Shown here: in pieces, positions 1,388-13,608 of the stretch | Numbering within the stretch: the first letter of the stretch is position 1 | Layout of the letters: the number at the start of each line of letters is the position of its first letter | Notes under the pieces: generated by a model | Database searches by the model: none | The model's input: the letters and a program-made list of their open reading frames with translations, nothing else | Told to the model about the DNA's origin: nothing | Made by a program: the position numbers and the translations under genes | DNA from: a virus | Lineage: Duplodnaviria > Heunggongvirae > Uroviricota > Caudoviricetes | IMG/VR virus record: IMGVR_UViG_3300010261_000025 | Coordinates: 1 to 16,516 of that record | DNA: 16,516 bases | Direction: 5' to 3' (one strand)

Positions 1388-1479
1388 TTACGCGGATTAA
1401 CAATTCGTGCTCTTAATAATACCAGGCATATCAGGCTGATGAACGTAAAAAAACGTTTTACATCAGTAAGATTATTATA

Positions 1480-1499
1480 TACTGTAAATATAAACAGTG
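1480..1499 (+). promoter_or_regulatory. LexA (SOS) box overlapping a putative promoter for the downstream small ORF and dinI-like gene
   Basis: TACTGTAAATATAAACAGTG = CTGT-N8-ACAG with an AT-rich spacer, matching the LexA consensus TACTGT(AT)4ACAGTA. TTTACA (-35-like) at 1457-1462 and TATACT at 1478-1483 overlap it. Confidence 0.6.
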
Positions 1500-1540
1500 G
1501 TCATGTATACAGTATTGCTTGTGGTGTTATAGGAGGAAAG

Positions 1541-1729
1541 ATGCAGGACTATTTTTTGGAGTCTTTGAAGCTCCAGCGCATTGATTTTTTTCTTAAGCTT
1601 GTAGCGGCTAGTGAGTGTAGTGATGAAGAGAAGGGGCTGGCTCTGCAGTGGGTTTCTGAATTGACTGATGAACTCATGGCAAAAATCAGAACCCACGAAT
1701 ACAACCGCTCAATGGATGTCATCAGCTGA
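1541..1729 (+). CDS. Small hypothetical protein (62 aa) under the LexA box; possible Tum-like SOS-induced antirepressor by position (unverified)
   Basis: ATG at 1541 is preceded by AGGAGGAAAG, a strong RBS. The longer ORF-track start at 1439 would overlap the LexA box and promoter, so the internal start is preferred. Located like the 186 tum locus, right of gene A. Confidence 0.5.
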   Translation: MQDYFLESLKLQRIDFFLKLVAASECSDEEKGLALQWVSELTDELMAKIRTHEYNRSMDVIS

Positions 1730-1739
1730 GGTGACTTTT

Positions 1740-1973
1740 ATGCGCATTGAAATAATGATCGATAAAGAGCAGAAGATTAGCCAGTCTACCCTGGATGCCC
1801 TTGAATCCGAGCTTTACCGCAATCTGCGCCCCCTGTATCCCAAAACGGTAATTCGTATCCGCAAAGGTAGCTCTAACGGTGTGGAACTGACCGGACTGCA
1901 ACTGGACGAAGAAAGGAAGCAAGTGATGAAAATTATGCAGAAGGTGTGGGAAGACGACAGCTGGTTACATTAG
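1740..1973 (+). CDS. DinI-family protein
   Basis: Translation MRIEIMIDK...DALESEL...KQVMKIMQKVWEDDSW shares the DinI signature (MRIE start, DAL..EL, C-terminal I.Q..WE..D.W). ATG at 1740 is preceded by GAGGTG. It is 10 nt downstream of the preceding ORF, suggesting one SOS-regulated transcript. Confidence 0.8.
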   Translation: MRIEIMIDKEQKISQSTLDALESELYRNLRPLYPKTVIRIRKGSSNGVELTGLQLDEERKQVMKIMQKVWEDDSWLH

Positions 1974-1979
1974 GGTACG

Positions 1980-2014
1980 TTGCGGACGATAAAACTGGTT
2001 TTTACCGTTCGCAA
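1980..2014 (+). other. Long imperfect palindrome / RNA hairpin just downstream of the dinI-like stop (14-bp stem, one mismatch, one G-U, 5-nt loop); no U-tract
   Basis: TTGCGGACGATAAAAC-TGG-TTTTTACCGTTCGCAA; the arms are reverse complements apart from 1989/2005 and a G-T at 1985/2009. Confidence 0.4.
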
Positions 2015-2099
2015 GGTTGAGCAACGAGCCGTGCGAGGCGTTAGTTATGGATAAATTGGTTGCAGGGTGATATGTAAATAGGTTAATACGTAGCACTCT

Positions 2100-2135
2100 T
2101 CGAATAGTTTCGTATTTTTGTTGTCCTATAATCAT
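2100..2135 (+). promoter_or_regulatory. Candidate sigma70 promoter for the cargo operon (TATAAT at 2127-2132)
   Basis: A perfect TATAAT hexamer lies about 60 nt upstream of the ATG at 2194; the -35 region is weak. AT-rich context. Confidence 0.3.
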
Positions 2136-2193
2136 AAGATGACAGCTTCCATGCACCACAATCCGTGGCGTTTGAGGCATAAGGAGGAAAATA

Positions 2194-2393
2194 TGTCTGA
2201 ACTTCTGCGCAAAGTTCTCTCTGCACCAGGTAAGATTATGCAGGATGTCATCCGTCAGGATGTGCAACAGTCTGATAATAGTAAAATTATCACAGATGCT
2301 AATGGTGCGGCGACCTTAAACATGAACAATAAGCAGGTACGTGAATCAATGCGTGCCAGAATGGAAGAATTGGCTGCAAAACGACAAGGATGA
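2194..2393 (+). CDS. Hypothetical small hydrophilic protein (66 aa), first gene of an AT-rich cargo operon
   Basis: ATG at 2194 preceded by AAGGAGGAAAAT. Its stop TGA (2391-2393) lies 3 nt before the next ATG, indicating translational coupling. No recognisable motif. Confidence 0.5.
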
Positions 2394-2396
2394 GGA

Positions 2397-3179
2397 ATGG
2401 GACCCTTAGTTATCATGGTCGTCCTGGTTTGCGGGTTCTGGTACACCGAAAATCATTACCAGTCCCGCATCAGGCAAGCAAGAAGTAATGGTTGGAATTC
2501 CTATTTTTATGTAGCTATGCATGGTTGTAAGTTTGCTATTCAGGGGTTTACTCTGATGGCTGTTACATTCGTTACCTTGCTAGTTATAAGCTCAGTTATC
2601 AATGTTTTTGGTTATTTTTGGCCTAAGTTACATGTGGACTTTTATTCATGGCTCACAGACGTAAAGATAATGTCTTACCCATTGTTCTTTGTGTTGTCTA
2701 TGCTGCTTGCGGTGTTTATTGCTTATGACCAAGGTAACAATGCGCGAAGAGCAATAGAAAACGAAGAGATTCGTCAATCTGCATATCGCGAGATGGCAGC
2801 TCAAGATGGAATTGAGTCACTGTTAGTTCAGGCTATAGATGAAGGTAAGCTCATCTTTGTTACGCTAAAATCCAGAAAAGTTTACATTGGTTACGTAGCT
2901 GCTCCTCGGATGGAGCATCAGGAAACTCAGCATCTGGCTCTCATACCATACATCAGTGGTTATCGTGATAAAGATACGCTCAGATACCATGAGCAGCATC
3001 GTTACTATGAACTTTACCTTAGTAAAAATATTACAGCAGACTCAACTCCACTGAACTTAAATCATTTTAGGCATGTAATCCCAATGGATCAGGTTGAGAG
3101 TATTTCAATATTTGATACTGAAACTTATAAATCTTTCGAAGATTTTTCTACGCCTGACCAGACCAAAGTCACTGCATGA
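2397..3179 (+). CDS. Hypothetical membrane protein (260 aa): three predicted N-terminal TM helices plus a ~150-aa soluble C-terminal domain; candidate phage-encoded defence/abortive-infection effector
   Basis: Hydrophobic stretches PLVIMVVLVCGFWY, FTLMAVTFVTLLVISSVINVFGYFW and IMSYPLFFVLSMLLAVFIAY. Visibly AT-rich compared with flanking phage genes. Sits in the variable region between gene A and the cos/portal end. Confidence 0.6.
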   Translation: MGPLVIMVVLVCGFWYTENHYQSRIRQARSNGWNSYFYVAMHGCKFAIQGFTLMAVTFVTLLVISSVINVFGYFWPKLHVDFYSWLTDVKIMSYPLFFVLSMLLAVFIAYDQGNNARRAIENEEIRQSAYREMAAQDGIESLLVQAIDEGKLIFVTLKSRKVYIGYVAAPRMEHQETQHLALIPYISGYRDKDTLRYHEQHRYYELYLSKNITADSTPLNLNHFRHVIPMDQVESISIFDTETYKSFEDFSTPDQTKVTA

Positions 3180-3296
3180 CTATGCCGCATGAATATGCAT
3201 GATCGTTCGAGGATCGTTTTTGCTGAGGCCCGCCAGTTCTGGTGGGCTTTTGCTTATGTCATGCACCTGCATGAAAATCGCTACAAAAAGCGGGCA

Positions 3297-3315
3297 GGCG
3301 TGGCGGGGATACGAG
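3297..3315 (+). other. Candidate cos (cohesive end) site
   Basis: GGCGTGGCGGGGATACGAG in a GC-rich non-coding island. As I recall them, the 19-nt cohesive ends of P2 (GGCGAGGCGGGGAAAGCAC) and 186 (GGCGTGGCGGGGAAAGCAT) match in the first 13 nt. The location between the replication side and portal Q is as expected for cos. Confidence 0.35.
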
Positions 3316-3394
3316 CGCGCGCAAACATGTTTACTTGCAATTAATGTAGATATATTCTGAAATTGATAACTTACACATGAAAGGAGACGTGAGA

Positions 3395-3586
3395 GTGGCA
3401 AAATATACACCGGGCCAGAAAGTAAAACATGCAACAGGACATGGTCCAATCATGGTAATTGATCACTACCAATCGGCTACAATGGCAGTTTGTACGTGGT
3501 TTATTGGTGCTAAGAACCAGCGCGGAGTTTTTCATGAAGATACTCTAGTTTTATTTGTTCCAAAAGCTGAGAGTGATGATGAATGA
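3395..3586 (+). CDS. DUF2158 (YodC-like) small protein, ~63 aa
   Basis: GTG at 3395 follows AAGGAGA by about 8 nt; the ATG at 3377 is an alternative start. Motifs GQKVKHATGHGPIMVI and CTWFIGAKNQRGVFHEDTL resemble the DUF2158 pattern (G.KV.LKSGGP.MTV ... C.WF.G ... F). Confidence 0.5.
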   Translation: MAKYTPGQKVKHATGHGPIMVIDHYQSATMAVCTWFIGAKNQRGVFHEDTLVLFVPKAESDDE

Positions 3587-3845
3587 TTCTCTGATAAAAA
3601 TAGTTGACTGGATGGTTAATACCACTCGTTCTAATGGTGTGTTGTATCAGTCCGAGGTTGTTGAATTTCTAATCAATGACTTTGGGGACGAGTTCATCAA
3701 AACTAATGAGAATGGTAATTACGCTATAAGCAGTACTGTGCTAGCAAATTTTAGAAAGGCTAGCAAAGACGATATAGTTTGGGATCGTGAACAGTTAGCT
3801 TGGCGTTTACGCAATGAAAGCGATTTACCCGGACGGATGCAGTAG
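3576..3845 (+). CDS. Hypothetical protein (~89 aa), translationally coupled to the DUF2158 gene
   Basis: Tandem ATG ATG at 3576-3581 overlaps the upstream stop (GATGATGAATGA). The ORF ends at 3845 and is followed by a hairpin terminator. No recognisable domain. Confidence 0.45.
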   Translation: MMNDSLIKIVDWMVNTTRSNGVLYQSEVVEFLINDFGDEFIKTNENGNYAISSTVLANFRKASKDDIVWDREQLAWRLRNESDLPGRMQ

Positions 3846-3862
3846 AGATAATACAGATAATA

Positions 3863-3903
3863 GTGAACAAGCTGATAATTTCAACTTGTTCACTTCTTTT
3901 TTA
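3863..3903 (+). terminator. Rho-independent terminator (possibly bidirectional) between the small-gene pair and portal gene Q
   Basis: GTGAACAAGCTG-ATAATTT-CAACTTGTTCAC hairpin (about 11-bp stem, one mismatch) followed by TTCTTTTTTAT. Confidence 0.6.
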
Positions 3904-4941
3904 TGACTGATTATTTTCTAAGCCATAATATTCAAATTTGACTACCTCTTCATCTAACCATTCATTAATTTCGGCAATGCGTTTTTGTAAAGGCATCAGT
4001 TCATTCCGAACAAATACCCGGCTGGCTTTCTCCACATCCCCAAACCCCCCTACATTATTAGGCATAATCCCCATCATCTGCGGCGGCACTCGGTGTGCTG
4101 CCATCATGTCGTCCCGGCTCACGTTCTTGATATTCAGAAACTCATCCTTCGCCGCGACTTCTGACAACGGGATGATCTGAAGCCCGTCCTTTTTGCCGTT
4201 AGGCGAGTACATAAACAGATTGCGGAAGTTACCTGGTCCTTTGGCGCTTTTCATCGCATTGCGGAGGTTGTTCACATCCTCCTGGTTTTGCGCGGCATCG
4301 GTCATGTACATGATGAAGCCTGCATGACTGCCGTTAATGTAATACTTTCGACGGAACAGCGTGGCGGACTCGTTGAGCAGGGCAGACGGAATGGCAGAAA
4401 GATAACCGGGCAGGCCGTAGATCTCCTGATTAATATCCGGTTCCATTAGATGAAAAATGCTGCCTTTCGTGAACTGATACGGCTGGGTTGTCATACCGTA
4501 TTGCACAAACCAGTAGGTATCCAGGTCTAACCCGCGTCGGGTGTATTTTGCCAGCGCAGGCTCAAGGGCGATAACTTCACCGAATCGGTTCGTGCGTTTC
4601 TCCAGGTAGGCGTTACCAAATACCAGATAGTCCTGCACAAAACGCGAAAAAGCCTGCTGGCTGAGCAGCGGATGAGGGATATAGGTACTGGTCAGAATGT
4701 TGCACTTTACTGCAATCGGGGAACTGTGATGCACGGCGGCGCGGAAGGTGCGCGCCAGTCCGTCAAAGCTGACGGGCGGCTCATACCAACGGTCCATCTG
4801 TACGCATTCCACATAGTCCAGCAGTTCACGGCGGTCCAGAACAGGAACGGGATCGCCGAAGCTGAATGCTTCGGCTGTAGTTTGACTTTTAAGCTGGATC
4901 TGTTTCGTCGCCGCAGCTCGGTTCTTCTTACTCTTTCCCAT
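3901..4941 (-). CDS. Q: Portal vertex protein GpQ
   Basis: 346-aa ORF beginning MGKSKKNRAAATKQ, with the size and gene order of P2 Q. The ATG at 4941 overlaps the stop of the upstream terminase gene; the ORF track extends one codon further to a TTG. Confidence 0.9.
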   Translation of the reverse strand: MGKSKKNRAAATKQIQLKSQTTAEAFSFGDPVPVLDRRELLDYVECVQMDRWYEPPVSFDGLARTFRAAVHHSSPIAVKCNILTSTYIPHPLLSQQAFSRFVQDYLVFGNAYLEKRTNRFGEVIALEPALAKYTRRGLDLDTYWFVQYGMTTQPYQFTKGSIFHLMEPDINQEIYGLPGYLSAIPSALLNESATLFRRKYYINGSHAGFIMYMTDAAQNQEDVNNLRNAMKSAKGPGNFRNLFMYSPNGKKDGLQIIPLSEVAAKDEFLNIKNVSRDDMMAAHRVPPQMMGIMPNNVGGFGDVEKASRVFVRNELMPLQKRIAEINEWLDEEVVKFEYYGLENNQS

Positions 4942-6707
4942 CAAAAAATCTCCACAATATTGCTGGTATTGGCGGATTCGCCCTGCAGCGGTTCGTTAAA
5001 CAGTGCGTGCATCGTTGCCCATGCCAGATCGGCGTGGCTGGCTTCTTCGCTGCGGCTGGCTTCATAGGTCGGGCGGTTGCCACTGGCGGTGGTGGCGCGA
5101 CGGATTGCCATAAATGACTGCGCAATGTCGGTATGTCCGGCGTCAAACTCCAGACGGCGGTGGCTGATAATGTCGTAGGCCTTGAGTACCAGGGCGTTTT
5201 TAACGTTGGGGTTGTAGACAAACTCCCGGACGGCAGGAAAGAACGCTTTCACGTTCTCGTAAACCCCGTGACCAACGCCGGTTGAGTCGATGCCGATGTA
5301 GGTCACGTTGTACTGCTCGGTCAGTTTTTTGATTGCGTCAGCCTGGGCGCGGAAGTCCATCCCGCGCCACTGGTGACGCTCAAGAATGCGAAACTTACCG
5401 CCCGGCACGGCTGGCGGTGCCACCACCACGCATCCGGCGCTGTCGCCGTTCTGCGTACCTTTTGCCGGGTCATAACCGATCCACACTTCGCGCCAGCCAA
5501 ACGGGCGCAGGGCCAGAGCATGAAAGTCGGTCCAGACTTCCCAACTGTCCACCATGCACGTCTGCAGCTCGCTGAGCGGAAACACGGACGCGAGATCGTC
5601 CACAAACTCGCACATCAGTAGGTTCTGGTATTCGTCCGGGCTGTACTCCATGCGCAACTGGTCGAGGTCGAACAGGTTACAGCCGCCGCGCACCGCATCT
5701 TCCACAGTGACTATCTGGCGGTACTGCCCGTCTGCGCACAGCAGGCCGGGGGCCAGATTGCTGTGGGACAGGTCGATGTCCACCTTATCGGCTTTGTTGC
5801 GCCCACGATTGAACAGCGCACCGGACCAGAACGGATAAGCACTGTGAGTCAGGCTGGATGGCGTGGAAAAATAGGTTTGTCGCCATTTTTTGTGAATAGC
5901 CATACCGGAAGCCACTTTGCGCAGCTCCTGGAATTTCGGTATCCAGAAATATTCATCCAGATACAGGTTGCCGTGATAACTCTGGGCCGTGCGGGCATTG
6001 GTGCCGAGGAAGTAAAGCGTGGCCCCGTTAGGAAGCACCATCGGATCGCCTTTCAGCTCCACCTCCACTTCTTTGGCGAAGTCGATGATGTACTGCTTAA
6101 AGACGTGGGCCTGTGCCTTACTGGCGGAAAGGAAAATCTGGTTACGCCCGGTAAGCAGGGCGTCAATCAGGGCTTCACGGGCAAAGTAAAAGGTCGCGCC
6201 GATCTGGCGTGACTTCAGCAGGTTGCGGATGCGGTTGGTTTTTCCGGCTTCCCACCAGTGGCGCTGGTAGTTGAACATGGAGGAATGGAAGATTTCTTCC
6301 AGCTTCTCAATCTGTTCATCGGTGAAGACATTTTTTTCCGGCTGACGGCGCGGGCCTTTGTTGCGGTTGGCGACGTTAGGGTTTAAGTCAGCTTCGTTGC
6401 CGCCATTGTTAAACTTGCCGATCCGCGCGTGGCGCTCAGACTGGCGCGCCAGCAGGTCAATCTCTTTGAAATCTTTCCCTTCTTTGTGCTCCTTCATAAT
6501 GAGCTGGCAGTAGCGTGCGGCGGTGGTGAGCTGCATCTGATCCAGCGGCCCATAGTCACCCCACTTGTCGCGTTTTTTCCAGCTGTGAACGGTTGCAACT
6601 TTCTCGCCCAGCATTTCAGCAATGCGGGCGACGCGGTATCCCTGAAAGTACAGCAGCATGGCCTGCCGACGGGGATCGAGATCTGCGGGTGTCAGTGTGG
6701 TGTTCAT
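4941..6707 (-). CDS. P: Terminase large (ATPase) subunit GpP
   Basis: 588-aa ORF with the size and order of P2 P, co-oriented with Q and divergent from O. Confidence 0.9.
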   Translation of the reverse strand: MNTTLTPADLDPRRQAMLLYFQGYRVARIAEMLGEKVATVHSWKKRDKWGDYGPLDQMQLTTAARYCQLIMKEHKEGKDFKEIDLLARQSERHARIGKFNNGGNEADLNPNVANRNKGPRRQPEKNVFTDEQIEKLEEIFHSSMFNYQRHWWEAGKTNRIRNLLKSRQIGATFYFAREALIDALLTGRNQIFLSASKAQAHVFKQYIIDFAKEVEVELKGDPMVLPNGATLYFLGTNARTAQSYHGNLYLDEYFWIPKFQELRKVASGMAIHKKWRQTYFSTPSSLTHSAYPFWSGALFNRGRNKADKVDIDLSHSNLAPGLLCADGQYRQIVTVEDAVRGGCNLFDLDQLRMEYSPDEYQNLLMCEFVDDLASVFPLSELQTCMVDSWEVWTDFHALALRPFGWREVWIGYDPAKGTQNGDSAGCVVVAPPAVPGGKFRILERHQWRGMDFRAQADAIKKLTEQYNVTYIGIDSTGVGHGVYENVKAFFPAVREFVYNPNVKNALVLKAYDIISHRRLEFDAGHTDIAQSFMAIRRATTASGNRPTYEASRSEEASHADLAWATMHALFNEPLQGESANTSNIVEIF

Positions 6708-6753
6708 GGCACAAACCTACAGCCTTGAATGAAGGCTTTCCCCGCCTGCGGTT

Positions 6754-6771
6754 TGTGTGGTTGTCGGTACA
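6754..6771 (+). promoter_or_regulatory. Late-promoter activator (Ogr/Delta-type) binding site upstream of O: TGT-N12-ACA
   Basis: TGTGTGGTTGTCGGTACA at 6754-6771 in the P/O divergent intergenic region, about 80-95 nt upstream of the O start codon. P2 late promoters carry a TGT-N12-ACA dyad centred near -55. Confidence 0.45.
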
Positions 6772-6849
6772 AATACCGCGCATTGTTTCACTGCCCCCAT
6801 CACCGCAACCATAAGGCTCCAGTAAGTTTTTTCTAACGGAGCACGGCTC

Positions 6850-7683
6850 ATGACAGTGAAAGCAAAGCGTTTTCGCATCGGGGTGGAAGGTGCCACCACC
6901 GATGGACGCGAAATCCAGCGTGAATGGCTGGAACAGATGGCAGCCAGCTACAACCCGGCGGTGTATACCGCGCTGATTAACCTTGAGCACATCAAGTCTT
7001 ATCTGCCGGACAGCACCTTTAACCGCTACGGCAAGGTGACGGCGCTGTTTGCTGAAGAAATCACGGAAGGTCCGCTGGCAGGCAAGATGGCGCTGTATGC
7101 CGACGTTGAGCCAACGGAGTCCCTGGTGGAACTGGTGAAAAAAGGCCAGAAATTATTCACCTCTATGGAAGTCAGCCCGAAGTTCGCTGATACGGGCAAA
7201 GCCTACCTGGTCGGCCTGGCTGCCACTGATGACCCTGCCAGTCTGGGTACGGAAATGCTGACATTCAGCGCCAGTGCAGCCCATAACCCGCTGGCAAACC
7301 GCAAGCAGAATCCTGCCAATCTCTTTACCGCTGCAGAGGAAACGGTGATCGAACTGGAAGAAATCCAGGACGACAAACCGTCCCTGTTTGCCCGCGTCAC
7401 GGCGCTGTTTACCAAAAAAGAGCAGTCCGATGACGCCAGGTTCTCTGATGTGCATAAGGCCGTGGAGCTGGTCGCCACTGAGCAGCAGAACCTGAGCGCA
7501 CACACCGAAAAATCCCTGTCTGAGCAGGAAGAACGTCTGTCTGAGCTGGAGACTGCCCTGCAGGCACAGCAGACCGCCTTTAACGAACTGGTGGACAAGC
7601 TGAGTCATGAAGACAGCCGCCAGGACTACCGCCAGCGTGCAACAGGCGGTAACGCCCCCGCTGACACTCTGACCAATTGCTGA
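6850..7683 (+). CDS. O: Capsid scaffolding protein GpO
   Basis: 277-aa ORF; RBS ACGGAG before the ATG; acidic coiled-coil-like C-terminal region; position between P and N as in P2. Confidence 0.9.
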   Translation: MTVKAKRFRIGVEGATTDGREIQREWLEQMAASYNPAVYTALINLEHIKSYLPDSTFNRYGKVTALFAEEITEGPLAGKMALYADVEPTESLVELVKKGQKLFTSMEVSPKFADTGKAYLVGLAATDDPASLGTEMLTFSASAAHNPLANRKQNPANLFTAAEETVIELEEIQDDKPSLFARVTALFTKKEQSDDARFSDVHKAVELVATEQQNLSAHTEKSLSEQEERLSELETALQAQQTAFNELVDKLSHEDSRQDYRQRATGGNAPADTLTNC

Positions 7684-11448: not shown

Positions 11449-11842
11449 AGCGGTGCCTTATGTCCGCAATAACCCGGACAAACTGCATCTGTTTGTGGAT
11501 AACGGTTCGCTGGTTGCCACGGGGGCCAGCTCCATGTCATGGGAGTACCGCTACACCCTGAACGTGGTGATTGAGGATTTCAGCGGCGACCAGAATCTGC
11601 TGATGGCCCCGGTTTTGCTGTGGTTGCGGGATAACCAGCCCGATGCCATCAATAACCCGGCGTTACGGGAAAAGCTATTCACCTTTGAGGTGGATATTCT
11701 GCGCAACGATGTCTGTGATATCAGCCTTAACCTGCAACTGACGGAGCGTGTGCTGGTCAGCACTGACGGCAGTGTGTCGAACGTTGAAGCGGTAGCGGAA
11801 CCTGATGAACCTGAAGAAATGTGGACGGTGAAACGTGGCTGA
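11411..11842 (+). CDS. R: Tail completion protein GpR
   Basis: GTG at 11411 preceded by AGGAG. Translation (HLFVDNGSLVATGASSMSWEYRYTLNVVIEDFSGD ... WLRDNQPD) resembles P2 R. Confidence 0.8.
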   Translation: MNKPQSLRHALNKAVPYVRNNPDKLHLFVDNGSLVATGASSMSWEYRYTLNVVIEDFSGDQNLLMAPVLLWLRDNQPDAINNPALREKLFTFEVDILRNDVCDISLNLQLTERVLVSTDGSVSNVEAVAEPDEPEEMWTVKRG

Positions 11843-12281
11843 ACTGCAGAAGGTGGACGACTGGCTGAGTGCATTATTGGCGAATCTGGAGCCAGCCGCA
11901 AGAAGCCGCATGATGCGCCAGCTGGCGCAGGAACTGCGCCGGACACAGCAGCAGAACATCAGGATGCAGCGCAATCCAGATGGCAGCAGTTATGAGCCGC
12001 GCAGGGTAACAGCACGCAGCAAAAAGGGGCGCATCAAACGTCAGATGTTTGCGAAGCTGCGCACCACAAAATACCTGAAAACTGCCGCCAGCGCCGACTC
12101 TGCCAGCGTGCAGTTTGAAGGCAAGGTGCAGCGCATTGCCCGCGTTCATCACTACGGCCTGCGTGATCGCGTCAGTCGCAAAGGACCTGAGGTCCGTTAT
12201 GCAGAGCGTCGTTTGTTAGGGGGGAATGATGAAGTAGAAACTCGAACTAGGAATATCCTAGTTCGATGGCTTATAAGTTAG
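11835..12281 (+). CDS. S: Tail completion protein GpS; the 3' end runs into AT-rich inserted DNA
   Basis: GTG start overlaps the R stop. P2 S-like size and order. The last ~18 codons are encoded by AT-rich sequence containing a perfect 10-bp inverted repeat. Confidence 0.8.
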   Translation: MAELQKVDDWLSALLANLEPAARSRMMRQLAQELRRTQQQNIRMQRNPDGSSYEPRRVTARSKKGRIKRQMFAKLRTTKYLKTAASADSASVQFEGKVQRIARVHHYGLRDRVSRKGPEVRYAERRLLGGNDEVETRTRNILVRWLIS

Positions 12282-12937
12282 CTCTTATTTTTGGATGAGC
12301 GTAAAAGACTCATTAATTCTATGATGATTTTTTCTTGAAGTAGATTGGGGGTTTTTTCGAAACTTACATTGTGTTCACGTAATGTTTGAATGATTTTGCC
12401 GAACTCATCAGTATCACCTTGCGATAGTAAGAATGCAATTCTCTGGTTGTCATAGTCGTTGCTCATTTGCATGTTGTATTTAATGAACACAATAAATAAC
12501 CGAAGTATATATCCAGTGAATAATATTCCAGATAAGATTAGTAAATAAGGTGCCGCGGTTTCAATGGCTTTTTCAAAGGTGCTTTTAGTATTTAGGTATG
12601 TTGAATTAATACCTGATTCATTTTTTTTGATTATCGGGTTTGAATTTTTTGAAGCGTTGAGGTTTTCTGATGCTTGTGCAAGTTTATCAGTTAACTGTTG
12701 CATGGCGGTGAACTTTTCGAAAGCAGATTCTATTTGCTGAGAGCTCAATCTAAGTGAGGCAAGTGCATTGTCACGCTTATTACTTTCTGCTTTATAAAAA
12801 ATATAAGTTGCAGGAATGCAGAGTACAGCAGTTAATAAAATATATAAAAATAAGAGCGTAGTAATTTTAGAGCGGCTAGCTCGTTTTTCCATTGTTTTCA
12901 ATATTTCGTTATATTTTTGTTCGTCAAGAACCATCAT
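12278..12937 (-). CDS. Hypothetical two-TM membrane protein (~220 aa) encoded by an AT-rich moron between S and V; candidate superinfection-exclusion/defence protein
   Basis: Tandem ATG ATG at 12937-12932 (minus strand) preceded by AAGGA. The ORF-track start at 13039 would overlap the V start, so it is unlikely. TM segments ITTLLFLYILLTAVLCIPATYIFY and APYLLILSGILFTGYILRLFIVFI flank a coiled-coil-like segment. Opposite orientation to the late genes, at the position of P2 orf30. Confidence 0.6.
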   Translation of the reverse strand: MMVLDEQKYNEILKTMEKRASRSKITTLLFLYILLTAVLCIPATYIFYKAESNKRDNALASLRLSSQQIESAFEKFTAMQQLTDKLAQASENLNASKNSNPIIKKNESGINSTYLNTKSTFEKAIETAAPYLLILSGILFTGYILRLFIVFIKYNMQMSNDYDNQRIAFLLSQGDTDEFGKIIQTLREHNVSFEKTPNLLQEKIIIELMSLLRSSKNKS

Positions 12938-12964
12938 CTTAAATTTTATCCTTGGAAGATACAT

Positions 12965-12982
12965 TGTGCCATTTATAGCACA
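12965..12982 (+). promoter_or_regulatory. Late-promoter activator site (TGT-N12-ACA) for a P_V-like promoter upstream of V
   Basis: TGTGCCATTTATAGCACA sits inside a perfect 9-bp inverted repeat (TACATTGTG ... CACAATGTA), about 50-65 nt upstream of the V ATG. P2 has a late promoter upstream of V. Confidence 0.5.
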
Positions 12983-13029
12983 ATGTACCTGATCTACCGT
13001 AGAAGTCGATAATTCATCATCCTTAGTAG

Positions 13030-13608
13030 ATGAACGCACAACTAACAGAAATCATGCGCCTTATCACCAACCTGATCCGCACAGGGGTAGTCACCGAAGT
13101 GGACCGGGAAAACTGGCTTTGCCGGGTGAAAACGGGCGAGCTTGAAACCAACTGGATCAGCTGGCTGACGCTGCGTGCCGGGAATGCCCGCACATGGTGG
13201 CGACCATCGGAAGGTGAGCAGGTGGTGGTGCTGAGTCTGGGAGGCAATCTGGAAACTGCCTTTGCGTTGCCCGCAGTCTATTCGAATCAGTTCGCGCCAC
13301 CTTCGACGTCGGCGGACGCCTGCGTGACAGAACATCCTGACGGTGGCTGGTTTGAATACGAACCCGCCACCGGGCGCTGGTATGTCAGGGGCATCAAATC
13401 CATGGTCATTGAGGCTGCCGACAACATCACCCTGAAAACCAGTGAGTTTGTGCTGGAGGCTGACCGCACGCGTATTAACAGCGAAGTAGTGATCAATGGT
13501 GGCGTTACCCAGGGCGGCGGTGCAATGAGTTCTAACGGAATTGTGGTTGATGCACATCAGCATACTGGCGTCCTGAAAGGCGGCGATACAACCGGAGGCC
13601 CGGTATGA
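13030..13608 (+). CDS. V: Baseplate spike / assembly protein GpV
   Basis: 192-aa ORF with the conserved motif WWRPSEGEQVVVLSLGGNLETAFALPAVYS (compare P2 V TWWAPSVGEQVLILAVGGELDTAFVLPGIYS) and an HTG motif at the C-terminus. Confidence 0.85.
   Translation: MNAQLTEIMRLITNLIRTGVVTEVDRENWLCRVKTGELETNWISWLTLRAGNARTWWRPSEGEQVVVLSLGGNLETAFALPAVYSNQFAPPSTSADACVTEHPDGGWFEYEPATGRWYVRGIKSMVIEAADNITLKTSEFVLEADRTRINSEVVINGGVTQGGGAMSSNGIVVDAHQHTGVLKGGDTTGGPV

What the first reader, a model, noticed from the sequence alone, without database searches (positions are those of the whole stretch)
12242..13029. Opposite-strand AT-rich moron between tail genes S and V encoding a two-TM coiled-coil membrane protein
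A ~220-aa ORF (12278-12937, minus strand) is inserted antisense to the late operon exactly where P2 carries the orf30 moron. The DNA is strikingly AT-rich. The protein has two strong TM helices flanking a coiled-coil-like segment and no recognisable motif. Its stop overlaps the S stop, so the insertion appears to have replaced the native 3' end of S. A lysogen-expressed membrane protein at a moron site is a classic candidate for superinfection exclusion or defence.
Basis: partly seen in the sequence, partly recalled or inferred. Interest (0 to 1): 0.7.

Follow-up and report, generated by a model that had tools for sequence, protein, structure and literature searches.

The report
Membrane-protein moron at P2 orf30 site
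A P2-like prophage carries, between tail genes S and V, a real AT-rich backwards-facing gene for a small inner-membrane protein of an uncharacterised family found only at accessory-gene sites of temperate phages; it is a reasonable but untested candidate for protecting the lysogen against other phages.

Summary
A 219-aa ORF (12278-12937, minus strand) lies in a 33-34% GC island between gpS and gpV of a P2-like prophage whose flanks are about 57% GC. No shuffle of the region gives an ORF that long. The site is the same as P2 orf30, between the O-operon end and the pV activator box, but the protein is unrelated to Orf30.

It belongs to a small uncharacterised family: PHROG 2611, no Pfam, NCBIfam or PADLOC model, and 94 clusters in 1.8 billion representatives. 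It has two TM helices, a variable outward helical loop, and a strongly conserved TM2 plus about 65-aa cytoplasmic tail. dN/dS of 0.07-0.2 shows purifying selection.

In all 31 IMG/VR loci from the first scan, homologues down to 33% identity sit antisense between S and V. More distant members sit next to cI/cII, next to integrases, or after tail fibres in other prophages. All of these are typical accessory-gene positions.

In a 60-row sample of E. coli genomes, about 44% of the rows that join both flanks have the site occupied by single AT-rich genes. These include a TIR protein and an FRG/PDC-S15 defence candidate.

Function is inferred only. I favour membrane-level phage exclusion (about 0.35). 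There is no structural or sequence link to SieA, SieB, Imm or HK97 gp15. It is a new member of a known kind, of moderate interest.

The parts
12212..13029 (.). Exchangeable cassette, boundaries approximate. It comprises a cassette-specific gpS tail, the antisense gene, and a cassette-specific version of the pV promoter region. It takes the place of about 138 nt in 'empty' relatives.
   Evidence: Alignments to phage 500465-1 and Cartapus lose nucleotide similarity after about 12211 and regain it at the V ATG, 13030. GC drops to 0.33. There are no flanking direct repeats.
12278..12937 (-). CDS of the 219-aa two-TM protein (WP_000989498.1; PHROG 2611 family).
   Evidence: dN/dS is 0.07-0.20 in homologues.
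12857..12937 (-). Residues 1-27: N-terminal cytoplasmic helix rich in K/R, with the conserved motif L..L.KRA..S+.
   Evidence: K+R density is 0.21 here against 0.12 in the loop, over 71 sequences. Invariant residues are L13, K18, R19 and S23. pLDDT is 88-95.
12785..12856 (-). Residues 28-51: TM helix 1.
   Evidence: Hydropathy peak of 2.0-2.3 centred on residues 32-39. Lies within AlphaFold helix 6-94.
12551..12784 (-). Residues 52-129: variable, probably periplasmic loop. It consists of an amphipathic helix (52-94), a disordered Ser/Asn-rich stretch (95-115) and a short helix leading into TM2.
   Evidence: Least conserved region (majority-residue frequency 0.58) and usually the region with the highest dN. 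Loop length ranges from 61 to 135 aa across the family, and some members carry an NlpC/P60-like fragment here.
12467..12550 (-). Residues 130-157: TM helix 2, with a conserved basic residue (R146) and the motif FIVFIKY.
   Evidence: Hydropathy peak at residues 140-143. dN is about 0. The invariant residues are listed.
12281..12466 (-). Residues 158-219: conserved cytoplasmic C-terminal module, with the motif NMQ..DY.NQ.I..LLS.G.T..F....R.HN..FEKTP.L.QEKII. It is predicted as three helices.
12242..12266 (-). 11-bp-stem hairpin 12 nt downstream of the antisense gene's stop and inside the gpS coding sequence. It is a candidate terminator for the antisense gene, and possibly acts in both directions.
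   Evidence: Terminator scan. RNA fold gives -16.3 kcal/mol, z = -4.9, with 0 of 200 shuffles folding as well. It is specific to this allele; other alleles have different hairpins or none.
11835..12281 (+). gpS (tail completion / virion morphogenesis), intact at 148 aa. The last ~18 codons are cassette-specific.
12966..12983 (+). TGT-N12-ACA dyad (TGTGCCATTTATAGCACA), 50 nt from the V ATG. This is the Ogr/Delta-type activator box of late promoter pV. It is part of a 26-bp near-palindrome at 12961-12986.
   Evidence: The dyad is 49-51 nt from the V ATG in every related locus and cargo type that has one; no exact TGT-N12-ACA was found in P2 itself. P2's annotated activator site occupies the same position. 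The inverted repeat is I1.
12943..12990 (-). Zone that must contain the antisense gene's promoter. Candidates are TATAAA preceded by TGC inside the dyad, CACAAT at its edge, and ATGGCA-18-TAAAAT (12972-12943), which would give a leaderless mRNA. It overlaps the pV activator box.
   Evidence: Promoter scan and sequence inspection. Inference only; no transcript data.
13030..13608 (+). gpV (baseplate spike / assembly protein), first gene of the V operon.

Best explanation
Shown:
- This is a one-gene accessory cassette (moron) at the orf30 site of a P2-like prophage.
- It lies in the gap between two late operons: the end of the O operon at S, and promoter pV.
- It is exchanged by recombination within the S 3' end and at the V start.
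- It encodes a 219-aa protein under purifying selection, from a small uncharacterised family found in the loci examined here at accessory-gene positions of temperate phages.

Inferred:
- The protein is an inner-membrane helical hairpin with both ends in the cytoplasm.
- The N-terminal helix and the conserved C-terminal helices probably form a small bundle under the membrane.
- A variable helical loop faces the periplasm.
- The gene is transcribed leftward from a sigma-70 promoter that overlaps the Ogr box of pV. It would then be made, possibly at low and H-NS-damped levels, in the lysogen, and shut off when Ogr and late transcription take over.

Proposed function, not shown: it protects the lysogen from incoming phages at the cytoplasmic membrane. 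The most likely route is interference with genome entry or with a membrane component needed for it. This is how the unrelated small membrane proteins T4 Imm, P22 SieA and HK97 gp15 act (from my own knowledge).
For: Real gene:
- ORF length beats all 20,000 shuffles.
- dN/dS is 0.07-0.20, with TM2 almost invariant.
- The ORF is intact in 28 of 30 loci.
- There are 94 representative clusters, with a sharply conserved C-terminal motif.

Cassette:
- The site is empty in close relatives.
- GC is 0.33 against 0.57.
- The same site as P2 orf30.
- The site is occupied by unrelated single AT-rich genes in about 44% of the sampled rows that join both flanks (21 of 48).

Fixed position:
- All 31 IMG/VR loci have the homologue antisense between S and V.

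Not a P2-specific assembly function:
- Relatives lie next to cI/cII, next to integrases, and after the tail fibres at prophage ends.

Topology:
- Two hydropathy peaks, a K/R-rich N-terminus, and NlpC/P60-like fragments in the loop of distant members.
- AlphaFold pLDDT 79.

Regulation:
- The TGT-N12-ACA box is 27 nt from the start codon.
- The identical 18-mer TGTGCTATAAATGGCACA is kept next to alleles only 42-48% identical in protein. L009 has a second copy adjacent to the gene.
- Hairpin z = -4.9.

Defence context:
- A TIR protein and an FRG/PDC-S15 protein are alternative cargo at the same site.
- A distant homologue lies near a type I restriction enzyme and a patatin gene.
Against: There is no functional or expression data of any kind.

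There is no hit to any PADLOC model. There is no sequence or fold relation to SieA, SieB, HK97 gp15 or anything in PDB or BFVD.

The best conserved parts are cytoplasmic and TM2, not the periplasmic loop where an entry blocker might be expected to contact phage parts. Loop dN/dS never exceeds 1, so there is no signature of an arms race.

Another AT-rich cargo gene at this very site is reported as H-NS-silenced in BL21.

One distant homologue sits in an ordinary chromosomal neighbourhood.

The gene is rare in E. coli: 7 of 5426 complete genomes. Most cargo genes at the site have no known function, so guilt by association is weak.
Confidence: 0.35

Rival explanations
1. Abortive-infection effector. 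The conserved cytoplasmic bundle senses a phage product. The TM hairpins, which carry a conserved basic residue in TM2, then oligomerise into a pore that depolarises the cell and aborts infection.
For: Conservation is concentrated in TM2 and the cytoplasmic parts, with a conserved R/K inside TM2. It is a single gene at a site that also carries TIR and PDC-S15-type cargo. Transmembrane effectors are common in abortive systems (Rousset et al., PMC9122126).
Against: There is no recognisable sensor or enzymatic domain, and no partner gene. There is no match to SLATT or other 2TM effector families in Pfam or PADLOC. No toxicity data exist.
Confidence: 0.15
2. Lysogenic-conversion factor unrelated to phages. 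It would be an envelope protein that alters membrane or cell-wall physiology, for example tolerance to colicins, tailocins, antimicrobial peptides or stress.
For: It occupies typical moron positions in several prophage types. The loop is periplasmic and some relatives carry peptidoglycan-hydrolase-like (NlpC/P60) fragments. One distant homologue lies in a non-phage, non-defence chromosomal context.
Against: Nothing specific points to any such phenotype. There is no signal peptide or lipobox as in Bor, Lom or Cor. The family is overwhelmingly phage-borne in the sets examined.
Confidence: 0.2
3. Accessory function in the phage's own cycle, for example tuning lysis timing or membrane events at injection or assembly, or interplay with P4-type satellites. 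This would explain the fixed place next to pV.
For: It keeps the same site and orientation across diverged P2-like genera, and its start lies within about 30 nt of the pV activator box.
Against: It is absent from most P2-like phages, so it is dispensable. The site is interchangeable with unrelated cargo. Relatives occur in lambdoid and other prophages at unrelated sites. It is antisense to the late operons, and the box is too close (about 36 nt from its centre to the ATG) to serve as an Ogr-activated promoter for it.
Confidence: 0.1
4. Silent or decaying passenger DNA with no current function.
For: It is very AT-rich and likely H-NS-bound, as reported for DUF6216 cargo at the same site. It is rare in E. 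coli. Two of 30 loci have truncated or frameshifted copies.
Against: dN/dS is 0.07-0.20 over dS up to about 1.5. TM2 and the C-terminal motif are nearly invariant, and the ORF is intact in 28 of 30 loci.
Confidence: 0.03

Closest known systems
Bacteriophage P2 Orf30 (NP_046770.1), and the DUF6216 cargo of E. coli B/BL21 P2-like prophages
   Same: They occupy exactly the same genomic slot and orientation: minus strand, between the S/O-operon end and the pV activator box. Each is a single gene of 33-34% GC, non-essential, of unknown function and predicted to be a membrane protein.
   Different: There is no sequence relationship (hhalign probability 0.5%). Orf30 and DUF6216 have three TM-like segments and are 261-268 aa, whereas this protein has two TMs and a conserved cytoplasmic tail.
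HK97 gp15 moron (superinfection exclusion; Cumby et al. 2012, from my own knowledge)
   Same: It is a moron embedded in a tail-gene cluster with its own terminator, and it encodes a small inner-membrane protein made in the lysogen (annotation).
   Different: gp15 is 62 aa, lies on the same strand as the tail genes, and is not homologous (hhalign probability 5%). Its exclusion activity is demonstrated; none is demonstrated here.
P22 SieA and P22/lambda SieB
   Same: P22 sieA is also a small membrane-protein gene placed antisense at the end of a late structural operon, with its own promoter. The proposed role is the same.
   Different: There is no homology: SieA probability is 11% over a TM segment only, and SieB is 0.3%. 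There is no Pfam SieB hit.
T4 Imm (Pfam Imm_superinfect)
   Same: It is a small inner-membrane protein that blocks DNA entry (from my own knowledge).
   Different: There is no Pfam hit. Imm is 83 aa and belongs to a virulent phage.
P2 hotspot cargo: old/tin (gpA-gpQ) and Z/fun
   Same: These are AT-rich, horizontally exchanged single or few-gene cassettes in P2-like prophages that exclude other phages (PMC9122126, PMC9519451).
   Different: The site is different. The S-V (orf30) site is named as a variable region (PMC3091744), but the passages I searched in the defence-hotspot papers do not name it.

Membership tests
Uncharacterised two-TM prophage protein family (PHROG 2611) | Significant full-length profile match | tested here: met
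   phrog_2611 matches at E=1.9e-29 over residues 6-210, covering profile positions 4-216 of 230.
Uncharacterised two-TM prophage protein family (PHROG 2611) | Shared architecture: K/R-rich N-terminal helix, TM1, variable loop, TM2, and a conserved tail with the motif F(I/V)(K/R)Y..Q...Y..Q..A...S.G.......FxKTP...EK | tested here: met
   Alignments A1, A4 and A6 show Y154 invariant and F151, P197 and K203 at 90% or more over 71 sequences.
Moron (autonomous accessory cassette in a prophage, as defined by Hendrix and colleagues; from my own knowledge) | Present between two genes that are adjacent in related phages | tested here: met
   S and V are about 68 nt apart in phage 500465-1 and in 27 of 48 sampled E. 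coli rows that join both flanks.
Moron (autonomous accessory cassette in a prophage, as defined by Hendrix and colleagues; from my own knowledge) | Base composition distinct from the surrounding genome | tested here: met
   GC is 0.33 against about 0.57.
Moron (autonomous accessory cassette in a prophage, as defined by Hendrix and colleagues; from my own knowledge) | Own terminator | tested here: inconclusive
   There is a strong hairpin at 12242-12266 (z = -4.9), but its T-tract is poor and it is not conserved in other alleles.
Moron (autonomous accessory cassette in a prophage, as defined by Hendrix and colleagues; from my own knowledge) | Own promoter, active in the lysogen | not testable with these tools
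   Only consensus-like hexamers overlapping the pV activator box were found. No transcript data were available.
P2 Orf30 / DUF6216 | Sequence homology to Orf30 or a match to PF19723 | tested here: not met
   hhalign probability is 0.5%. There is no DUF6216 hit in the Pfam scan.
P22 SieA | Sequence homology | tested here: not met
   hhalign probability is 10.9% over 36 columns confined to a TM helix.
SieB (PF14163) and T4 Imm (PF14373) | Match to the Pfam model, or homology to P22 SieB | tested here: not met
   Neither appears in the Pfam scan at E<=1. hhalign against P22 SieB gives probability 0.3%.
HK97 gp15 | Sequence homology | tested here: not met
   hhalign probability is 5.3%.
Known or candidate anti-phage systems (PADLOC-DB 2.0) | Match to any of the 5027 models | tested here: not met
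   The window protein matches 0 families at E<=1. Distant members P0036 and P0045 match none, and P0020 gives only a weak partial hit to a Type I specificity-subunit model (E=4e-4), which I treat as spurious.
Superinfection-exclusion or defence protein (functional class) | Expression reduces infection by other phages | not testable with these tools
   Plating, adsorption and DNA-entry assays are required.

The most novel reading that the evidence does not exclude
The PHROG 2611 family is a previously unrecognised, self-contained, single-protein membrane immunity module of temperate phages. The S-V (orf30) gap, whose cassettes carry their own gpS tail and their own pV promoter with the cargo promoter nested in the Ogr box, would then be an overlooked defence hotspot of P2-like phages. 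It would be switched off automatically when the prophage enters its own late phase.
Probability: 0.3. Interest if true: 0.6.

Novelty: new member of a known kind. Interest (0 to 1): 0.4.

Why it matters
P2-like prophages are among the best-mined reservoirs of anti-phage genes, but that work has centred on the gpA-gpQ and Z/fun sites.

This analysis shows that the old 'orf30' slot is occupied in roughly four of ten sampled E. coli rows by interchangeable single AT-rich genes. These include TIR and FRG/PDC-S15 proteins and several membrane proteins.

One of these membrane-protein families is conserved, under purifying selection, and spread over several prophage types. If it does exclude phages, it adds a compact one-gene membrane module to the defence catalogue and a cheap new site to mine.

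The arrangement of the cargo promoter inside the late-activator box would also be a neat example of a moron wired to be lysogen-only.

If it has no phage phenotype, it remains an ordinary moron of unknown function.

Tried and rejected
- **Domain searches.** Pfam, NCBIfam and PADLOC scans gave nothing above threshold. The DUF3112 hit (21.8 bits, cut-off 23.3) is a fungal membrane family, and I treat it as a TM-composition artefact.
- **PDB profile search.** Best E was 0.02, on an unrelated protein.
- **AlphaFold.** The second, from 71 sequences, reached pLDDT 79.
- **Fold searches.**
  - Foldseek against PDB and BFVD gave nothing at E<=0.001.
  - AFDB50 was not available.
- **Known exclusion proteins.** Homology to P2 Orf30, the Cartapus cargo ORF, P22 SieA/SieB and HK97 gp15 was rejected by hhalign.
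- **Positive selection in the loop.** Regional dN/dS was at most 0.64 in pairs with dS of at least 0.16, and it exceeded 1 only in one near-identical pair with dS about 0.02.
- **Transposition or site-specific insertion.** There are no flanking direct repeats; only a 12-nt inverted match was found, which is probably chance in AT-rich DNA.
- **RNA genes.** Rfam found none in the window.
- **Ogr activation of the cargo gene.** Rejected on geometry, because the box centre is about 36 nt from the ATG.
- **Genome-collection scans.**
  - The GTDB species-representative scan found only one locus, in Providencia.
  - The first attempt, with the broad alignment, failed for lack of a conserved stretch.
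- **Literature.** Searches for the accession and for a P2-like inner-membrane exclusion protein found nothing specific.
Full report
**What is in the sequence**

The window is the replication-to-tail part of a P2-like (Peduoviridae) prophage. It contains:
- the gpA C-terminus;
- an accessory region;
- Q and P on the minus strand;
- O, N, M, L, X, holin, lysozyme, LysB/C, R, S, V, W, J and I on the plus strand.

This gene order matches the RefSeq annotation of an E. coli prophage that carries the same insert at 99.8% identity.

Between gpS (11835-12281) and gpV (13030-13608) lies a minus-strand ORF, 12278-12937. It encodes 219 aa and is annotated elsewhere as WP_000989498.1, 'hypothetical protein'. 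GC falls to 0.33-0.34 over 12300-13049, against about 0.57 on both sides.

In such AT-rich DNA, stop codons are frequent. The longest stop-free run in 20,000 shuffles of 12242-13029 was 183 codons, against 249 observed. The S stop (TAG, 12279-12281) and the ORF stop (TAA on the complement of 12278-12280) share two bases.

**Boundaries and anatomy of the cassette**

Close relatives (Escherichia phage 500465-1, Klebsiella phages KP12 and Kp48xx) match both flanks at 94-96% but lack about 680 nt. In them S and V are only about 68 nt apart. Phage Cartapus has an unrelated 176-aa antisense ORF in the same place.

Nucleotide similarity to these relatives ends at about 12211, inside S, and resumes at the V start codon. 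S is not truncated. It keeps its normal 148 aa, but the last ~18 residues after the conserved RRLLG differ with every cargo type examined.

The ~70 nt upstream of V is likewise cassette-specific in sequence. It nevertheless keeps a TGT-N12-ACA dyad 49-51 nt from the V ATG in every related locus where one was found. That is the place where P2's record annotates the activator binding site of late promoter pV.

The exchangeable unit is therefore roughly 12212-13029. It carries its own S tail, the cargo gene and its own pV promoter. No direct repeats flank it. This fits exchange by recombination in the conserved flanks rather than transposition.

An 11-bp-stem hairpin at 12242-12266 lies 12 nt past the cargo stop, inside the S coding sequence. 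It folds at -16.3 kcal/mol with z = -4.9. It is the obvious terminator candidate, but its T-tract is weak and other alleles lack it.

P2's record places the O-operon terminator and the V-operon start on either side of orf30. The site is thus a gap between two late transcription units, which explains why insertions are tolerated there.

**The promoter question (inference)**

The cargo start codon is only 27 nt beyond the dyad. Any sigma-70 promoter for it must therefore overlap the activator box or the pV core. There are three candidates:
- TATAAA preceded by TGC, in the centre of the dyad;
- CACAAT at its edge;
- ATGGCA-18-TAAAAT (12972-12943), which would give a nearly leaderless mRNA.

The 18-mer TGTGCTATAAATGGCACA is identical next to alleles whose proteins are only 42-48% identical to this one. 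In locus L009, where an S fragment separates the gene from V, a second copy of the 18-mer sits directly upstream of the cargo gene, while pV keeps a different dyad. This suggests that the element belongs functionally to the cargo gene as well.

The box centre is about 36 nt from the ATG. That is too close for the -55 geometry of Ogr-activated promoters (from my own knowledge). I therefore read it as a lysogen-type promoter that would be occluded when Ogr and RNA polymerase occupy pV. None of this is shown.

A caution: a preprint reports H-NS ChIP peaks on, and delta-hns/stpA derepression of, the DUF6216 gene of the BL21 P2-like prophage (10.64898/2026.09.05.749240). In a BL21 derivative that gene occupies this same S-V slot. 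This cargo, at 33% GC, may likewise be damped by H-NS.

**The protein**

Hydropathy gives two clear TM segments, with 19-residue window maxima centred at residues about 34-38 and 141-143.

With a 71-sequence alignment, AlphaFold reaches pLDDT 79 and pTM 0.57. It predicts the following:
- one long helix, 6-94, comprising the N-terminal cytoplasmic helix, TM1 and an extension;
- a disordered Ser/Asn-rich stretch, 95-115;
- a second long helix, 120-171, comprising TM2 and an extension;
- two short helices, 176-187 and 200-218.

The N-terminal segment is the most K/R-dense region: 0.21, against 0.12 in the loop, over 71 sequences. Five distant members also carry NlpC/P60-like fragments in the loop. 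Both features favour an N-in, loop-out, C-in topology, but no dedicated topology predictor was available.

'Coiled coil' is only a plausible description of residues 52-94.

Conservation is strikingly uneven. TM2 and the C-terminal ~65 residues are nearly invariant, with the motif FIVFIKYNMQ..DY.NQ.I..LLS.G.T..F....R.HN..FEKTP.L.QEKII. The loop varies in sequence and in length, from 61 to 135 aa.

**Family and distribution**

The protein has no Pfam, NCBIfam or PADLOC match. It matches PHROG 2611, 'unknown function', at E=2e-29.

A word-indexed search of 5.8 billion proteins found 19 clusters, all from Escherichia, Enterobacter and Klebsiella where a source name was given. An exhaustive profile search of 1.84 billion representatives found 94 at E<=1e-3 and 19 at E<=1e-30.

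The exact cassette occurs in 7 of 5426 complete E. coli genomes.

Pairwise Nei-Gojobori estimates give whole-gene dN/dS of 0.07-0.20 for pairs with dS of 0.27-1.5. dN is about 0 in TM2 and usually highest in the loop. Loop dN/dS reaches about 0.4-0.6 in pairs with dS of at least 0.16, and it exceeds 1 only in one near-identical pair whose dS is about 0.02. The ORF is intact in 28 of the 30 loci where it was extracted.

The gene is therefore maintained by selection. The refutation criterion 'degraded remnant lacking conservation' is not met.

**Genomic context of relatives**

In all 31 IMG/VR loci recovered with the family profile, the homologue (33-100% identity) lies antisense between gpS and gpV. 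This holds in phages whose gpS and gpV are only 58-88% identical to those here. A second scan added three more P2-type loci, in one of which the S flank lies beyond the contig end.

More distant members occur in non-P2 prophages:
- next to a CI-like repressor and a CII-like activator (L047);
- after the central tail fibre and side tail fibres at a prophage end next to smpB (Providencia L005, L048);
- next to integrases (L051, L065).

These are the classic positions of lysogenic-conversion and exclusion genes. They argue against a P2-specific virion or assembly role.

Two metagenomic homologues are chromosomal. One lies near a type I restriction enzyme and a patatin gene. The other lies in an ordinary metabolic neighbourhood.

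**The site as a cargo slot**

I searched 5426 E. coli genomes with joined R+S and V+W flanks and sampled 60 of the 1058 matching records. Of the 48 rows that joined both flanks, 27 had the empty spacing and 21 carried an insert.

The inserts examined are all single genes of 31-37% GC:
- DUF6216 (E. coli B/BL21 lineage and others);
- a TIR_2-domain protein on the plus strand, with weak hits to PADLOC PDC-S66 and SpbK;
- an FRG-domain protein matching the PADLOC candidate PDC-S15 at E=9e-32;
- hypothetical proteins of 250, 288, 307 and 381 aa.

About half of these have TM-like segments.

P2 Orf30 itself is a three-TM-like protein unrelated to this family.

The literature already lists orf30 as one of three regions of P2-like phages where horizontally acquired genes are found (PMC3091744, citing Nilsson et al. 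2004). The defence-hotspot studies I could search describe the gpA-gpQ, Z/fun and integrase-side sites. Their searched passages do not name the S-V gap (PMC9122126, PMC9519451, 10.1101/2024.10.15.618418, PMC13586616). The 2026 paper's 'within the tail genes / downstream of GpL' category might include it. I could not resolve that from the text.

**Comparison with known proteins**

Profile-to-sequence comparisons gave the following hhalign probabilities:

| Known protein | hhalign probability |
|---|---|
| P22 SieA | 11% (one TM helix only) |
| P22 SieB | 0.3% |
| HK97 gp15 | 5% |
| P2 Orf30 | 0.5% |

The fold and solved-structure searches gave no meaningful match:
- A profile search of PDB sequences gave nothing meaningful.
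- Foldseek against PDB and BFVD gave nothing at E<=0.001.

The protein is therefore not a member of any characterised exclusion family. The resemblance to Imm, SieA and gp15 is one of kind only: a small prophage-encoded inner-membrane protein at a moron site.

**Most likely function**

Established:
- a real, selected, horizontally exchanged single-gene cassette;
- a membrane protein of an uncharacterised, essentially phage-borne family;
- located at lysogenic-conversion positions.

Inferred:
- N-in/C-in topology;
- a lysogen-type promoter nested in the pV activator box;
- termination at the hairpin in S.

Proposed:

| Hypothesis | Probability |
|---|---|
| Protection of the lysogen against other phages at the cytoplasmic membrane, most likely by interfering with genome entry or a membrane factor needed for it | about 0.35 |
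| Sensor-pore abortive mechanism | about 0.15 |
| Envelope or fitness function unrelated to phages | about 0.2 |
| Role in the phage's own cycle | about 0.1 |
| Non-function | about 0.03 |

The first two together make about 0.5. The remainder is unassigned.

The fact that conservation sits on the cytoplasmic side and in TM2, rather than in the periplasmic loop, counts mildly against a simple periplasmic entry blocker. It keeps the abortive model alive.

**Verdict**

The finding is real and correctly located. Its interpretation is reasonable but unproven.

It is a new member of a known kind: a moron at the known orf30 variable site, from an unnamed protein family. The added points of interest are:
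- the fixed association of a fast-diverging family with one slot;
- cassettes that carry their own gpS tail and pV promoter;
- the evidence that this slot is a fairly busy, little-mined cargo site that includes defence-type genes.

Interest is moderate, at 0.4.

Noticed in passing
window 1400-3900: The classic gpA-gpQ (old/tin) hotspot of this prophage holds a DinI-like gene (1668-1973), an unknown 260-aa ORF (2397-3179) with no Pfam or PADLOC hit, and a DUF6953 gene (3555-3845), at GC 0.37-0.43. E. coli UC4224 has the identical S-V cassette but a DUF262 protein at this hotspot, so the two cargo sites assort independently.
   Followed up: partly
L009 5549-6001; L010 and L013 about 4700-7530; L024: Klebsiella-type P2-like contigs carry a second copy of gpR-gpS, or a gpS fragment, between gpV and the homologous membrane-protein gene. 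The cassette is therefore bracketed by duplicated tail-completion genes, which looks like a footprint of unequal recombination.
   Followed up: no
P0035-P0039; L005 7539-8309 (Providencia huashanensis): Distant family members have an NlpC/P60-like fragment (GDLVFF...HVGVYLG, best Pfam E = 6e-8) inserted in the loop between the two TM helices. It apparently lacks the catalytic cysteine region.
   Followed up: partly
window 12213-12281, and the equivalent gpS 3' ends in L001, L002, L004, L037, L043-L045: The last ~18 residues of gpS, after the conserved RRLLG, differ with every cargo type at the S-V site, while the rest of gpS is 84-92% identical among the E. coli-type phages compared. The tail of this essential protein seems freely replaceable.
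   Followed up: partly
window 12957-12990: The pV activator box is part of a 26-bp near-palindrome, ACATTGTGCcatttataGCACAATGT. The 18-mer core is 100% identical in loci whose cargo proteins are only 42-48% identical to this one.
   Followed up: partly
L043 1308-2108; L066 748-1683; L044 1134-1940; L045, L067-L069: Other E. coli P2-like prophages carry different cargo at the same S-V site. These are a TIR_2-domain protein (plus strand), an FRG-domain protein matching PADLOC PDC-S15 (E=9e-32), DUF6216, and four unrelated hypotheticals of 250-381 aa. All are 31-37% GC. About 44% of the sampled rows that join both flanks (21 of 48) are occupied.
   Followed up: partly
L037 940-1725 (P2 orf30) versus L044 1134-1940 (DUF6216): P2 Orf30 and the DUF6216 cargo have the same three-TM-like layout and similar length, although Orf30 does not reach the Pfam DUF6216 model. 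They may be distant relatives.
   Followed up: no
L023 and L027, downstream of the homologue's stop: In the most divergent P2-like group, a GC-rich intergenic hairpin (GCTGGCTA...TAGCCAGC) separates the cargo gene from gpS, in place of the in-gene hairpin seen here. It looks like a bidirectional terminator.
   Followed up: no
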